DNA of 64,000 nucleotides, taken from the IMG/VR virus record IMGVR_UViG_3300030098_006079. The stretch is one strand, 5' to 3'. The position numbers and the translations under genes are program-made. The notes under the pieces are model-generated. The model was not told the DNA's origin. It searched no databases and saw only the letters and a program-made list of their open reading frames with translations. Below, piece by piece: positions 59,389 through 64,000 of this stretch (position 1 is the first letter of the stretch; each line of letters opens with the position of its first letter). The DNA is from a virus. Its lineage: Duplodnaviria; Caudoviricetes.

Positions 59389-59832
59389 ATGACTTGGTAC
59401 GCAAATTCAGAAGGCCGACACGGAGCAAATGGTCGTAAAGGAGATCAAGGTGAAAAACTAGTAGAAGAATATTTTCTGCATAATAGTATAACTTATGAAC
59501 ATAAAACTGATATTGAAAGTCAAGTCCATAAAAAGATTGACTTTAGTGTTGGAGATAGAACCATTGATGTAAAGAACAATGTTTATAAAGGTTGGCATTG
59601 TGTCGAAGTAGGTAAGAAAAATGGATCTCCAGGTTGGTTATTTACATCGAGTGCTGATAGTATTTACGCAGTAGATTATGAGAACAAAAACATCTACTCA
59701 TATGATCTACTTGAGATGCGTAATCATATTAACGTAATTCGATGGGAGAAGAAGTCAGCTAAAATTACGAAGAATGGAGATCAAGTTATTTGGGTTAGCG
59801 TAAATGAACCTTTCTTTACTAAGCTACAATAG
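59389..59832 (+). CDS. PD-(D/E)xK nuclease-fold protein
   Basis: GDQGEKLV...KIDFSVGDRTIDVK. Confidence 0.6.
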   Translation: MTWYANSEGRHGANGRKGDQGEKLVEEYFLHNSITYEHKTDIESQVHKKIDFSVGDRTIDVKNNVYKGWHCVEVGKKNGSPGWLFTSSADSIYAVDYENKNIYSYDLLEMRNHINVIRWEKKSAKITKNGDQVIWVSVNEPFFTKLQ

Positions 59833-59833
59833 A

Positions 59834-59920
59834 GCCAGTGTGGTGAAATTGGCAAACACAACAGACTTAAAATCTGTCGCCCTTTTGGGCTTGTCGGTTC
59901 GAGTCCGACCACTGGTACCA
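59834..59920 (+). tRNA. tRNA-Leu(TAA), CCA encoded
   Basis: GCCAGTG/CACTGGT acceptor, ACAGA-CTTAAAA-TCTGT anticodon arm, long variable arm, GTTCGAG T-loop. Confidence 0.95.
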
Positions 59921-60993: not shown

Positions 60994-61365
60994 ATGAAAG
61001 TAAGACATAAGAGATATGGAGCTGTAACAAATAAAAATTGGGGTAATGTTATTAAGATTGTTGATAATGAAGAAAATAATTACAGCGGTAGAATTATAAA
61101 TTTGAATCAAAATCAAATGACCTCTACTCATTTTCATTCTAAGAAACATAAAACAATATATGTCTTGCAAGGTACTCTTACAATTGAAATTATTGAACCT
61201 ACAAACGGAGAAACTATTTCATTTGATGTAGACTCGGAAGAGTGTTTTGATATTGAACAAAATGTTGCGCATCGTTTAATGGCTAAAGATGGTGGAGTTA
61301 CCGCCATTGAAATTAGTACTTTTCATCATGATGAAGATGTATACAGAGTATCTCCTGCACTGTAA
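60994..61365 (+). CDS. Cupin-fold protein
   Basis: TSTHFHSKKHKTIYVLQG and IEQNVAHRL. Confidence 0.8.
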   Translation: MKVRHKRYGAVTNKNWGNVIKIVDNEENNYSGRIINLNQNQMTSTHFHSKKHKTIYVLQGTLTIEIIEPTNGETISFDVDSEECFDIEQNVAHRLMAKDGGVTAIEISTFHHDEDVYRVSPAL

Positions 61366-61370
61366 TACAG

Positions 61371-61446
61371 GCCAGTTTAGCTCAGTTGGTAGAGCACTCG
61401 ATTTGTAATCGAACGGTCGTCAGTTCGAATCTGACAACTGGCTCCA
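61371..61446 (+). tRNA. tRNA-Thr(TGT), CCA encoded
   Basis: GCCAGTT/AACTGGC acceptor, GCTC/GAGC D-stem, TTTGTAA anticodon loop, GTCAG-TTCGAAT-CTGAC T-arm. Confidence 0.93.
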
Positions 61447-62167: not shown

Positions 62168-62183
62168 CTTGGTGTTGTCAGAG

Positions 62184-63107
62184 ATGAAACTAAACATAAA
62201 CAAAACTAAGTTCGAAAAGATATCGAATATCGATGTCCCTGATATCTTTTACAATCGTCTAAAGTCTGGAATCGACGTAGTAGATAATGCTTTTGGTGAT
62301 GGGTTTCTCCCTTCTAGCACTGTTGTTATGAGCGGGGAACCTGGCACCGGTAAGACTACATTCCTGTTACAAGTACTCGAGGAGCTCGCCATTCGGAAAT
62401 ACAATGTAGGTTATGTTTCTGGAGAAGAATGCATAGAGCTGCTTAAGGTCAATTGTGACCGGATTGGTGTCAAGAATGTTCTGGCTTGTAATGAGACTAA
62501 CCTCAACTCCATCCTCAAACATATCCCGAGCTTCGATGCATTAGTCATAGATAGCTTCCAGTCACTGAATACAAACAAGCGCGGCTTGGCTCATGAGAAA
62601 GAATGTGTCGAGAAGATTTGCGCTGCAGCTAAGAAGCATCAGACTACTGTATTCATTATCTCTCATATTACTAAGACTGGTAAGATGAAGGGTAGTACGT
62701 TGTTGCCTCACTCTGTGGATGTGGTGTGTCATTTGACTCGTCATGATGACTTCGACGAGATGGAAGATAAGTCAGTGGTGCTAAATATTACTAAGAATAG
62801 ATTCGGCCCTACATTAGTTCGAGAGCTAAACTTCACTGCGCGCGGTTATGATTGGACTACAGTCAAGGAAGTAAAAGCAGAGAATACAGCAGCACCGAAG
62901 AGTCAGCGTATCAAGTCTGAGACAACTACGATCAAGCAACTTGCAGAAAAGATTAAGGATGGTAAGTTTAGCATTGACGAAGTGACCAAGAAGATCAAAA
63001 ACAAACCTCGCGCATATTATGTGTTGAAAAAACTTCGGGATGATGGTATAATTGTTGAAGCTAATAAAGCTGGTAAGAGTAAGACTCACTACACATTCAA
63101 GAAGTAA
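62184..63107 (+). CDS. RadA/Sms-like RecA-fold ATPase with C-terminal winged-helix-like domain
   Basis: GEPGTGKTT, YVSGEE, LVIDSFQ, KNRFGP; no N-terminal C4 Zn finger or Lon-like domain. Confidence 0.8.
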   Translation: MKLNINKTKFEKISNIDVPDIFYNRLKSGIDVVDNAFGDGFLPSSTVVMSGEPGTGKTTFLLQVLEELAIRKYNVGYVSGEECIELLKVNCDRIGVKNVLACNETNLNSILKHIPSFDALVIDSFQSLNTNKRGLAHEKECVEKICAAAKKHQTTVFIISHITKTGKMKGSTLLPHSVDVVCHLTRHDDFDEMEDKSVVLNITKNRFGPTLVRELNFTARGYDWTTVKEVKAENTAAPKSQRIKSETTTIKQLAEKIKDGKFSIDEVTKKIKNKPRAYYVLKKLRDDGIIVEANKAGKSKTHYTFKK

Positions 63108-63550
63108 TGCAAACGTTTCTACCATATAACAATTTCTATCAGAGTGCAAAAGTACTAGACCAGAAGCGTCTAGGGAAGCAGAGAGTAGAAGTACTTCAAT
63201 TGCTTAACTCTATCAAAGCATCGAAAGAAGATAGACCGTATAGAGGTTGGAAGAATCATCCATGTCGCAATATGTGGTACCTCAAAGGTAAACATGACTA
63301 CGCTAACGCATTAGTCTACTACGGCCAAGCAGTATGTAAAGCTTGGAAAGAGCGCGGGTATAAAGATACTTGCTATGAGAAAATATCTGCTCTTTATGAT
63401 CATTCGAAAAAGTTAGTATTTCCTCCGTGGTTAGGTGTTCATAAACTTCATGAGTCCCATCGTAGTATGTTGACTCAGAAAGATAGTAGCTGGTACAGAA
63501 AGTTATGGCCTTCTACTCCAGATAATCTAGAATATTACTGGCCCGTATGA
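63107..63550 (+). CDS. Pyrimidine-dimer DNA glycosylase (DenV/endonuclease V-like)
   Basis: MQTFLPY...LDQKRLGKQRVE...GWKNHP...HESHRSML. Confidence 0.82.
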   Translation: MQTFLPYNNFYQSAKVLDQKRLGKQRVEVLQLLNSIKASKEDRPYRGWKNHPCRNMWYLKGKHDYANALVYYGQAVCKAWKERGYKDTCYEKISALYDHSKKLVFPPWLGVHKLHESHRSMLTQKDSSWYRKLWPSTPDNLEYYWPV

Positions 63551-63558
63551 TAAAGAAT

Positions 63559-63715
63559 TTAAAAGTCGGTGAGTGTAACGCCTCCATAGCCTCCTCTCGA
63601 ATCTAGATACAGAGATGCGATGTTATACCGCAATGGACAAGGATGGTAAGACATCTTACACTTGATAACCAACTAGAGGGTTATCGTATCGCAGGTGGCG
63701 CTGCGACGACTTTAA
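63559..63715 (+). ncRNA. Candidate structured non-coding RNA
   Basis: GC-richer intergenic stretch without a credible ORF; nested helices and loop-loop complementarity (see findings). Strand inferred from context. Confidence 0.5.
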
Positions 63716-63745
63716 TTTATGTTAATAATAAACGTTACAGGAATA

Positions 63746-64000
63746 ATGAAAGTATTAATACGTGTTGCAATAATAGGTAGTTTAGCTTATTTTGCTGGGT
63801 ATGCGGTAGGTGCACCAATGACACCTTCTCCAACTATACAAAAATACAATGGCTTATTCATGCCAATATCAGAAAAAAAACCTCATTTATTTTATTTTTT
63901 AATGAGAGGAGAGGTCGTCGTTGGAGATGACAAAAAAATTCAACTAGATGATGATGCATTTATTCAAGCAGTTAAAGAAACAGAAGGTCATAAAATATAT
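63746..64000 (+). CDS. Exported/membrane protein, truncated by window end
   Basis: MKVLIRVAIIGSLAYFAGYAVGA signal-like N-terminus; frame open to the end. Confidence 0.55.
   Translation, partial: MKVLIRVAIIGSLAYFAGYAVGAPMTPSPTIQKYNGLFMPISEKKPHLFYFLMRGEVVVGDDKKIQLDDDAFIQAVKETEGHKIY

What the first reader, a model, noticed from the sequence alone, without database searches (positions are those of the whole stretch)
63559..63715. Candidate novel structured RNA with kissing loops and an alternative fold
Pairings seen: AAAGTCG 63562-68/CGACTTT 63707-13; GTAACGCC 63575-82/GGCGCTGC 63697-704; TCCATAGC 63583-90/GCAATGGA 63630-37; CTCT 63594-97/AGAG 63611-14; AGGATG 63640-45/CATCTT 63652-57; GATAACC 63664-70/GGTTATC 63679-85. 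Two hairpin loops are complementary (TCTAG 63602-06 with CTAGA 63673-77). A competing hairpin, TCGCAG 63689-94/CTGCGA 63701-06, excludes the second helix. It is GC-richer than its flanks, has no ORF, and matches no tRNA, ribozyme or riboswitch I recognise.
Basis: partly seen in the sequence, partly recalled or inferred. Interest (0 to 1): 0.7.

Follow-up and report, generated by a model that had tools for sequence, protein, structure and literature searches.

The report
New folded RNA in marine phages
The flagged stretch is a real gene for a roughly 150-base folded non-coding RNA that matches no catalogued RNA family; a group of uncultured ocean T4-like phages keeps it almost unchanged while the genes around it are swapped, and its job is still unknown.

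Summary
The element (window 63562-63713, + strand) is real.

- **Distribution:** I found it in about 45 marine metagenome and virome contigs, giving 24 distinct sequences. There is one copy per phage.
- **Position:** It always lies between co-directional genes, 2-4 kb downstream of phage tRNA genes.
- **Conservation:** Its core is more conserved (92.8% pairwise) than the adjacent denV-like gene (85.2%; third codon positions 75.6%). It is 97.7% identical between two phages whose neighbouring protein is only 47% identical.
- **Structure:** Compensatory changes support four hairpins (P5, P7, P8, and more weakly P6). About 100 G-U cells fit only the + strand, so selection acts on an RNA.
Helix 2 fails the comparative test.
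- **Kissing loops:** The loop complementarity (UCUAG/CUAGA) is present and invariant, but that means it cannot be tested by covariation.
- **Known families:** No Rfam family, tRNA, tmRNA, RNase P RNA or T4 rnaC/rnaD matches.

My best reading is a stand-alone stable small RNA, cut out of a polycistronic transcript like the neighbouring tRNAs, and a positional analogue of T4 RNAs C and D. Function is unknown. The scan has noted other uncatalogued RNAs in marine T4-like phages, but not this one on other DNA.

The parts
63562..63713 (+). The structured RNA element. Homology limits are about 63552-63718, including the A/U-rich flanks.
   Evidence: CM R1 scores 160-195 bits in about 45 contigs. The alignment of 24 distinct sequences is A5.
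63562..63568 (+). P1 5' strand (AAAGUCG). It pairs with 63707-63713.
   Evidence: The core GUCG/CGAC is invariant, with one U-A to U-G change. The outer A-U pairs are kept in 9-22 of 24 sequences.
63569..63581 (+). P2 candidate hairpin (GUG/CGC, or GGUG/CGCC) with a 7-nt loop whose two central bases vary freely (GU, AC, GC, AU).
   Evidence: The stem is invariant and variation is confined to the loop centre. An alternative is that CGCC pairs with GGCG in the P8 loop.
63583..63637 (+). P3 domain. UCCAU (63583-87) pairs with AUGGA (63633-37) and encloses P4 and P5.
   Evidence: Three pairs are invariant and two are broken in 2-7 of 24 sequences. Support is weak.
63596..63614 (+). P4 hairpin (CUC/GAG) with a 13-nt loop holding the 8-nt palindrome AUCUAGAU (63601-63608). 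UCUAG (63602-06) is complementary to the P7 loop.
   Evidence: The loop core is invariant in all 24 sequences. The stem shows U-A to U-G. The self-duplex energy is -9.4 kcal/mol.
63617..63631 (+). P5 variable hairpin (GCGA.../...CCGC). Its length and loop differ between phages.
   Evidence: The fourth pair occurs as A-U, G-C and G-U in A5, plus U-A in the A4 register, and as an A.C mismatch in the window. The first pair is G-C or G-U.
63640..63657 (+). P6 hairpin (AGGAUG / CAUCUU) with loop GUAAGA. An alternative 5-bp hairpin, GUAAG/CUUAC, is also possible.
   Evidence: It is 100% paired, with two pairs switching between A-U and G-U. The loop and the 3' strand are invariant.
63664..63685 (+). 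P7 hairpin (GAUAACC / GGUUAUC) with loop AACUAGAG.
   Evidence: The first pair occurs as G-C, G-U and A-U. The fifth is A-U or G-U and the seventh is C-G or U-G. It is 99.4% paired.
63689..63706 (+). P8 hairpin (UCGCAG / CUGCGA) with loop GUGGCG.
   Evidence: Two compensatory pairs: G-C to A-U, and C-G to U-G to U-A. It is 100% paired.
63707..63713 (+). P1 3' strand (CGACUUU). It is contiguous with the P8 3' strand.
63107..63550 (+). Upstream gene: pyrimidine-dimer DNA glycosylase (denV-like). Its stop codon lies 11 nt before P1.
   Evidence: Pfam PF03013, E = 5.5e-20.
63748..64000 (+). Start of the downstream gene, encoding a signal-peptide-like N-terminus. Relatives are 248-276-aa LRR proteins.
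61371..61446 (+). tRNA-Thr (UGU), same strand, 2.1 kb upstream. It starts 6 nt after the stop codon of the preceding ORF.
59834..59920 (+). tRNA-Leu (UAA), same strand. It starts 2 nt after the stop codon of the preceding ORF.

Best explanation
The element is a gene for a previously uncatalogued structured non-coding RNA of about 150 nt, carried in one copy by a clade of uncultured marine T4-like phages.

Shown:
- It is conserved more strongly than the coding DNA next to it.
- Several of its hairpins are kept by compensatory changes.
- Selection acts on the + strand transcript.

Inferred:
- Like the tRNA genes 2-4 kb upstream, which also abut the stop codons of the preceding ORFs, it has no recognisable promoter or terminator of its own.
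- It is transcribed as part of a polycistronic early or middle message and cut out by host RNases at the A/U-rich flanks.
- The P1 helix, stacked on P8 or P2, protects the ends.
- The excised stable RNA then acts in trans. Its four invariant loops (AAUCUAGAUA, GUAAGA, AACUAGAG, GUGGCG) and junctions contact a conserved partner such as a host or phage protein, an RNA, or another copy of itself.

It is thus a positional and probably functional analogue of the T4 stable RNAs C and D, whose function is also unknown.
For: Homologues and copy number:
- Homologues score 160-195 bits with the model built from three sequences. There are 24 distinct sequences.
- Nine of these were collected only through the neighbouring protein, and all four loops are still invariant in them.
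- There is one copy per phage contig.

Conservation:
- RNA core pairwise identity is 92.8%, against 85.2% for the adjacent CDS (third positions 75.6%, first and second positions 90.1%).
- The L001 and L030 cores are 97.7% identical, while the neighbouring protein is 47% identical.

Structure:
- 96.5% of cells are paired, against at most 53% for slid controls.
- There are 18 double-change cells, against 8.6 +/- 2.8 in shuffles (1 of 500 reach the observed value).
- The covariation score is reached by 0 of 500 shuffles.
- About 100 G-U cells would be A.C mismatches on the other strand.

Context:
- At least three different upstream genes and at least four different downstream genes flank the element.
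- Similarity between the window and L001 ends exactly at the element's 3' edge.
- The tRNAs lie on the same strand and abut ORF stop codons.
- In T4, tRNAs, rnaD, rnaC and denV lie within 8 kb on one strand.

Expression:
- Contigs from two RNA libraries, filed under two studies, overlap the element. One spans all of it and one ends at 63563.
Against: - No transcript ends are known. The RNA-library contigs are at depth 2-3 and could be DNA carry-over.
- One contig (X19) bridges the denV-like gene and the 5' half of the element. A second (X20) spans the whole element and runs on into 68 nt that do not match the window's downstream sequence. So unprocessed read-through RNA exists if these contigs are RNA.
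- The family is narrow. All members are about 90% or more alike in the core, so only about five independent compensatory events support the fold.
- P1-P4 rest on invariant or weakly supported pairs.
- Thermodynamic ensembles give low probability to P2, P3 and P4.
- No partner has been identified. Ro/TROVE and RtcB were not found in two incomplete phage contigs.
- The next start codon always follows within 8-35 nt, which would also suit a cis-acting role.
Confidence: 0.5

Rival explanations
1. RNA-processing element. Either a new self-cleaving ribozyme or a dedicated RNase (P/E) recognition module that separates the upstream and downstream cistrons. The conserved loops and the possible loop-loop and CGCC/GGCG contacts would form the active fold.
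For: - It sits tightly between co-directional genes, as many phage self-cleaving ribozymes and the tRNAs here do.
- It has highly conserved unpaired nucleotides plus possible tertiary pairings.
- One RNA-library contig ends at 63563, at the 5' edge of P1.
Against: - It shows no likeness to hammerhead, twister, twister-sister, pistol, hatchet, hairpin or HDV-like models, even at E<=10.
- Contigs from two RNA libraries run across the 5' edge uncut.
- At 150 nt it is larger than most self-cleaving classes.
Confidence: 0.15
2. Cis-regulatory leader (a riboswitch, or a protein- or temperature-responsive element) that controls translation of whatever gene follows. The P1 3' strand lies 8-35 nt from the start codon.
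For: - It is always directly upstream of a start codon that has an A/U-rich, SD-less leader.
- It has a multi-helix junction closed by P1, as in many aptamers.
Against: - The downstream genes are unrelated: a 66-aa ORF, an LRR protein, the 'MGMFD' 188-aa protein and small secreted proteins. There is therefore no common regulated function.
- No expression platform is evident (no terminator).
- P1 does not occlude the start region.
Confidence: 0.12
3. Self-assembling RNA. The 8-nt palindrome in the P4 loop, and the CUAG of the P7 loop, pair between molecules to build dimers or rings. This would be a small analogue of phi29 pRNA or of the ROOL/GOLLD cages.
For: - The palindrome AUCUAGAU is invariant in all 24 sequences while neighbouring loop positions vary.
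- The self-duplex energy is -9.4 kcal/mol, against -5.2 for the intramolecular L4-L7 pairing.
- ROOL and GOLLD are phage RNAs near tRNA islands that multimerise through kissing loops.
Against: - Invariance gives no covariation test.
- Palindromes of this length arise in 3.4% of shuffled loops.
- The RNA is 4-5 times smaller than ROOL or GOLLD.
- No packaging-motor context like that of pRNA is present.
Confidence: 0.1
4. DNA-level element: a recombination hotspot, cassette boundary or replication origin rather than an RNA.
For: Gene content changes exactly at both edges of the element.
Against: - About 100 G-U cells and the G-U intermediates of compensatory changes would be A.C mismatches in the complementary strand or in a cruciform.
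- Loops are conserved as strongly as stems.
Confidence: 0.05
5. A short protein-coding gene.
For: A 59-aa ORF spans the element in L001. Gene callers extended a 90-aa ORF into it in several contigs.
Against: - In the window the same frame stops after 19 codons.
- Indels of 1-7 nt in P5 break the frame.
- 3'-half substitutions are mostly non-synonymous and occur as paired changes in stems.
Confidence: 0.02

Closest known systems
Phage T4 small stable RNAs C and D (rnaC, 139 nt; rnaD, 119 nt; 'species 1 and 2 RNA')
   Same: - They are phage-encoded, non-coding and 120-150 nt long.
- They lie on the same strand as, and next to, the phage tRNA genes, in the genome region that also holds denV.
- They have no promoter of their own and are released from a precursor (my own knowledge of T4).
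- Their function is unknown.
   Different: - There is no sequence or structure likeness: model R1 gives no hit above noise on the T4 region.
- T4 rnaC ends in a canonical tRNA-like T-arm (GGUUCGAAUCC), which this RNA lacks.
ROOL and GOLLD RNAs (large ornate phage/prophage RNAs, Rfam)
   Same: - They are encoded by phages, often near tRNA islands.
- Their function is unknown.
- Conserved loops make kissing contacts (bioRxiv 10.1101/2024.12.08.627333).
   Different: - They are 500-800+ nt, against 150 nt here.
- There is no Rfam match.
- Multimerisation here is only a possibility raised by a palindromic loop.
phi29 pRNA (Rfam RF00044)
   Different: - There is no match to the Rfam model.
- pRNA belongs to small protein-primed podoviruses and is part of the packaging motor. 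This phage is a large T4-like myovirus, and the RNA lies among early-type genes.
Other uncatalogued small RNAs of marine T4-like phages noted earlier in this scan (e1-5337139, e1-5379407)
   Same: They are single-copy, covariation-supported, Rfam-negative RNAs in uncultured marine T4-like phages, and some lie beside tRNA or tmRNA genes (AI notes that I did not check).
   Different: A look-up with this sequence found only this stretch, so they are different families.

Membership tests
Any Rfam 15 family (4227 models, including riboswitches, self-cleaving ribozymes, pRNA, Y RNA, SRP, 6S, RNase P, GOLLD/ROOL, IMES and manA) | Covariance-model score at or above the family's gathering score | tested here: not met
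   The only gathering-level hits in the window are two tRNAs elsewhere. At E<=10 the 501-nt region gives only a 15-bit DUF3577 match against a cut-off of 42.6. The 174-nt element alone gives none.
tRNA / tmRNA | Cloverleaf with T-loop, or tRNA-like domain with tag ORF, detectable by ARAGORN or RF00005 | tested here: not met
   ARAGORN and Rfam find only tRNA-Leu and tRNA-Thr elsewhere in the window. No T-loop consensus is present in the element.
T4 rnaC / rnaD | Sequence or structure homology to the T4 genes | tested here: not met
   cmsearch with R1, filters off, on T4 68-76 kb gives nothing at rnaC or rnaD beyond one 2-bit, 16-nt match on the opposite strand inside rnaC (E 9.4), which is noise. 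The folds differ.
T4 rnaC / rnaD | Small non-coding RNA gene co-oriented with and near the phage tRNA cluster | tested here: met
   tRNA-Leu and tRNA-Thr lie 2-4 kb upstream on the same strand in the window and in L001, L089, L091 and L096. The T4 layout is shown.
Bacterial RNase P RNA (RF00010) | Collinear conserved regions CR-I to CR-V with the P4 helix | tested here: not met
   Short shared words (AAAGUC, CUCCAUAG, GUAACGCC, GGUAAGA) with three RNase P RNAs are, on most measures, no more than shuffles give (one count against L104 was reached by 10 of 500 shuffles), and they are not in the right order or structural register. There is no CM hit either way.
Riboswitch / cis-regulatory leader | Consistent association with functionally related downstream genes, and an expression platform | tested here: not met
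   At least four unrelated downstream genes follow the element. No terminator-like site is present.
Self-cleaving ribozyme | Site-specific self-scission | not testable with these tools
   The only evidence is one low-depth RNA-library contig ending at 63563, while others cross that site.
Y RNA (YrlA type) | Ro (TROVE) protein encoded in the same genome, usually adjacent, and a tRNA-like module | tested here: inconclusive
   No TROVE or RtcB match in the two incomplete phage contigs (59% and 32% complete). There is no Rfam YrlA hit.
Kissing-loop or self-assembling RNAs (pRNA, ROOL, GOLLD) | Loop-loop pairing kept by covariation or shown by structure | tested here: inconclusive
   Both loops are invariant in 24 sequences, so there is no covariation to test. 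The chance rate is 2% for the pair and 21% for any loop pair.

The most novel reading that the evidence does not exclude
The RNA is a miniature self-assembling phage RNA. Its invariant palindromic loop (AUCUAGAU) and the CUAG-bearing P7 loop would join copies into dimers or closed rings. That would make it a 150-nt counterpart of the ROOL/GOLLD nanocages or of phi29 pRNA, made by T4-like phages next to their tRNA genes. An alternative of equal novelty is that it is a new class of self-cleaving ribozyme.
Probability: 0.12. Interest if true: 0.8.

Novelty: new variant of a known kind. Interest (0 to 1): 0.5.

Why it matters
Phage-encoded stable RNAs other than tRNAs are among the least understood parts of phage genomes. 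T4 RNAs C and D have had no known function for fifty years, and ROOL and GOLLD only recently turned out to form RNA cages.

This RNA is small enough for direct biochemistry and structure work. It is under stronger constraint than the repair gene beside it, and it recurs in ocean samples from many studies. It therefore gives a tractable new family in which to ask what such RNAs do during infection.

The caveats are that it is confined to one clade of uncultured phages, its host is unknown, and similar uncatalogued RNAs are turning up repeatedly in marine T4-like phages. Its existence is therefore not in itself surprising.

Tried and rejected
- **Nucleotide search of phage records.** A distant blastn of 63400-63900 against 50,697 phage records gave no match.
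- **Exact and degenerate scans of IMG/VR.** Five patterns found only the same two contigs. The two extra hits of the loops-only pattern (L108, L109) were not confirmed by the model.
- **Scan of species genomes.** It gave two hits (Burkholderiales and Acidobacteriota MAGs), neither confirmed by the model. No host-encoded copy was found.
- **Model search of related loci.** A search of 77 loci around relatives of the two flanking proteins gave only chance matches inside coding sequence. denV-like genes at 93% identity in a LysM context, and at 75% or less, have no gap and no RNA.
- **RNase P likeness.** I recalled several shared words, tested them against E. coli rnpB and two other RNase P RNAs, and found them mostly not above shuffles and not collinear.
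- **T4 rnaC/rnaD homology.** None was found.
- **Helix from the MFE fold.** The MFE helix GAGUGUA/UACACUU of the window is broken by two uncompensated changes in most homologues.
- **Other possible likenesses.** I considered a T-box-like UGGN bulge, a CsrA site (ACARGGAUG in P6, where the GGA is lost in L089/L093), an anti-SD CCUCC (the phage hardly uses SD sequences), and hairpin, hammerhead and HDV-like cores. None has support and none was tested further.
- **Promoter and terminator scan.** It found nothing convincing at the element. The upstream AUAAAGAAUUUA resembles the phage's frequent ATAAATAATTA motif but is absent in L030 and L089.
- **RNA-library contigs.** The parts of the stretch without cover, and the low shares of words in the four RNA runs, say nothing about expression level.
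- **Paralogy of the 66-aa ORFs.** There is no likeness between the 66-aa ORF downstream of the element and the one upstream of the ATPase.
- **Supplementary data of the viral csRNA survey (PMC10690425).** The files are not held, so I could not check whether the survey lists this RNA. Sequence strings of the RNA occur in no paper of the library.

Full report
**1. The observation**

I read 63000-64000.

- The stretch lies between a denV-like pyrimidine-dimer glycosylase gene (63107-63550, Pfam PF03013) and an ORF starting at 63748.
- Folding energy is modestly better than shuffles on both strands (z = -2.45 and -2.78).
- Rfam 15 gives nothing at the gathering scores. At E<=10 it gives only a 15-bit chance hit.
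- ARAGORN finds only tRNA-Leu (59834) and tRNA-Thr (61371), upstream on the same strand.
- G+C is 0.45, slightly above the flanks but not unusual for the window.
- Short ORFs overlap the element, so 'no ORF' is not literally true.

**2. Homologues**

No whole genome is held for the window.

- The denV-like protein led to 28 viral loci. Only L001 (protein 98% identical) has the element.
- An exact 22-mer found a second IMG/VR contig, L030.
- The three copies share sharp limits and a nearly identical core, but have a completely different small central hairpin.
- One degenerate pattern built on three loops found 15 more copies in marine metagenomes. All were confirmed at 160-185 bits by a covariance model built from the first three.
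- That pattern fixed three loops, so I also collected copies without using the RNA sequence. Relatives of the denV-like protein were looked up in public assemblies. All 31 loci from the protein clusters at 86% identity or more have the RNA, which adds nine new distinct sequences.
- In total there are about 45 contigs and 24 distinct sequences (alignment A5), with one copy per phage contig.
- The window's DNA is held by marine runs from 13 studies.
- Lineages whose denV-like gene sits in another context (93% cluster, LysM neighbour), or is 75% identical or less, have no intergenic gap and no RNA.
- Loci around relatives of the downstream 'MGMFD' protein also lack it.
- No copy was found in 50,697 phage records or in species genomes.

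**3. Constraint**

- Among 11 loci with the same upstream gene, the RNA core is 92.8% identical pairwise. The last 240 nt of the gene are 85.2% identical (third positions 75.6%, first and second positions 90.1%).
- L001 and L030 share 97.7% of the core, while the protein encoded just downstream is 47% identical.
- Gene content changes at both edges. Upstream genes are denV-like, the KaiC-like ATPase directly, or a secreted HMA-like protein. Downstream genes are a 66-aa ORF, an LRR protein, small secreted proteins, or the 188-195-aa 'MGMFD' protein.
- Window-to-L001 similarity (92%) stops exactly at the element's 3' end.
- The element is therefore a conserved island between exchangeable cassettes.

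**4. Structure**

On A5, my model (P1-P8 plus the loop-loop pairing) has 96.5% of cells paired, against 31-53% when partners are slid. It has 18 double-change cells against 8.6 +/- 2.8 in shuffles (1 of 500), and a covariation score reached by 0 of 500 shuffles (similar on A4).

| Helix | Evidence (unless stated) |
|---|---|
| P8 | G-C to A-U; C-G via U-G to U-A |
| P7 | First pair G-C, G-U, A-U; two further pairs switch to wobble |
| P5 | Variable length; fourth pair A-U, G-C, G-U (plus U-A in the A4 register), and an A.C mismatch in the window |
| P6 | Always paired, but only through A-U/G-U switches |
| P1 | Core invariant (one U-A to U-G) |
| P2, P4 | Invariant or wobble only |
| P3 | Three invariant pairs, the rest partly broken |

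- Thermodynamic ensembles favour P1, P5, P7 and P8, and are undecided for the 5' domain.
- About 100 of 1100 cells are G-U. These would be A.C on the other strand, so the selected molecule is the + strand RNA, co-oriented with all neighbouring genes.
Its helix 2 fails: pair 16-151 is unpaired in 9 of 15 sequences, and one position is never paired.
Only CGCC/GGCG (-11 kcal/mol with its neighbours) could survive as a pseudoknot with the P8 loop. It is invariant and competes with P2.
- The helix that dominates the window's MFE (GAGUGUA/UACACUU) is not conserved.

**5. Loops**

AAUCUAGAUA (P4), GUAAGA (P6), AACUAGAG (P7) and GUGGCG (P8) are invariant in all 24 sequences, including the nine ascertained through the protein.

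- UCUAG/CUAGA can pair (-5.2 kcal/mol). Complementarity of at least 5 nt arises in 2% of shuffles for this pair and in 21% for any pair of loops.
- The P4 loop holds an 8-nt palindrome (self-duplex -9.4 kcal/mol), so intermolecular pairing is at least as plausible as the intramolecular kiss.
- None of this can be tested by covariation.

**6. Not coding**

- In L001 a 59-aa ORF spans the element. In the window the same frame stops after 19 codons.
- P5 indels are 1-7 nt.
- Changes in the 3' half are mostly non-synonymous and come as paired stem changes.

**7. Context and expression**

- Earlier notes of this scan call the phage a divergent marine T4-like phage with deazaguanine DNA (AI notes that I did not check). 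PHROG hits (baseplate hub, RNR, Lon-like protease) fit a large myovirus.
- Only 5 of 41 genes have an SD-like sequence, as in phages of Bacteroidota.
- The tRNA genes start 2 and 6 nt after ORF stops, and the RNA's P1 starts 11 nt after the denV-like stop. No promoter or terminator is evident. All are therefore probably cut from polycistronic transcripts (inference).
- In T4, tRNAs, rnaD, rnaC and denV lie on one strand within 8 kb. This RNA is thus a positional analogue of T4 RNAs C and D, but it is not homologous to them.
- Four marine metatranscriptome runs hold low-depth contigs in the stretch, and three of them reach the element. One covers the whole element and runs on downstream, one bridges the denV-like gene and the 5' half, and one ends at 63563. 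This is weak evidence of transcription and does not define ends.

**8. What it is not**

- RNase P-like words that I noticed are mostly not above shuffles and are not collinear.
- There is no Ro/TROVE or RtcB gene in two incomplete relatives.
- There is no literature hit for its sequence.
- I could not check the 10,006 candidate viral RNAs of Fremin et al. (PMC10690425), because their supplement is not held. With only two IMG/VR copies, the RNA is unlikely to have been found by that survey.

**9. Verdict**

This is a real structured RNA of a new family, confined to one clade of uncultured marine T4-like phages.

| Reading | Odds |
|---|---|
| Processed, trans-acting stable RNA | about 0.5 |
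| Processing element or ribozyme | 0.15 |
| Cis-regulatory leader | 0.12 |
| Self-assembling RNA | 0.1 |
| DNA-level element | 0.05 |
| Small protein-coding gene | 0.02 |

The alternative fold does not, and the kissing loops remain open.

The scan has reported other uncatalogued RNAs in marine T4-like phages but not this family, so interest is moderate.

Noticed in passing
window, upstream of many starts (e.g. 16399, 20611, 21259, 28116, 43422, 3544): A motif close to ATAAATAATTA (containing the T4 late-promoter-like TATAAATA or CATAAATA) lies 2-8 nt before many start codons. Only 5 of 41 genes have an SD-like sequence. This suggests very short or absent leaders and a Bacteroidota-like host.
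   Followed up: partly
window 59832-59834 and 61365-61371: Both tRNA genes start 2 and 6 nt after the stop codon of the preceding ORF, so tRNAs, ORFs and the new RNA appear to share transcripts.
   Followed up: no
window 63105-63109 and 63546-63550; L090, L095 (upstream flanks): The denV-like gene is present or absent as a precise cassette. Its start overlaps the stop of the ATPase gene (TAATG). In contigs without it, the ATPase stop is followed by the same ATGATAAAGAATTTAAAA leader as after denV.
   Followed up: partly
L119-L126 (e.g. L119:1737-2009): Public gene calls extend the downstream 66-aa ORF to 90 aa by starting at the AUG inside the P6 hairpin of the RNA. This is an annotation artefact that hides the RNA.
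   Followed up: partly
L030:3323-3712 (- strand): In L030 and L097 the gene upstream of the RNA encodes a 129-aa protein with a signal-peptide-like start and a weak heavy-metal-associated (CxxC) domain match. This is unusual cargo for a phage.
   Followed up: no
window 63646-63659: The invariant P6 region can form a mutually exclusive 5-bp hairpin (GUAAG / CUUAC, loop ACAU). All positions are invariant, so the choice between the two hairpins is open.
   Followed up: partly
window 62169-63107: A 312-aa KaiC/DnaB_C-like P-loop ATPase with a lysine-rich C-terminal tail is conserved just upstream of the denV-RNA locus in all related contigs. Its role is unknown.
   Followed up: no
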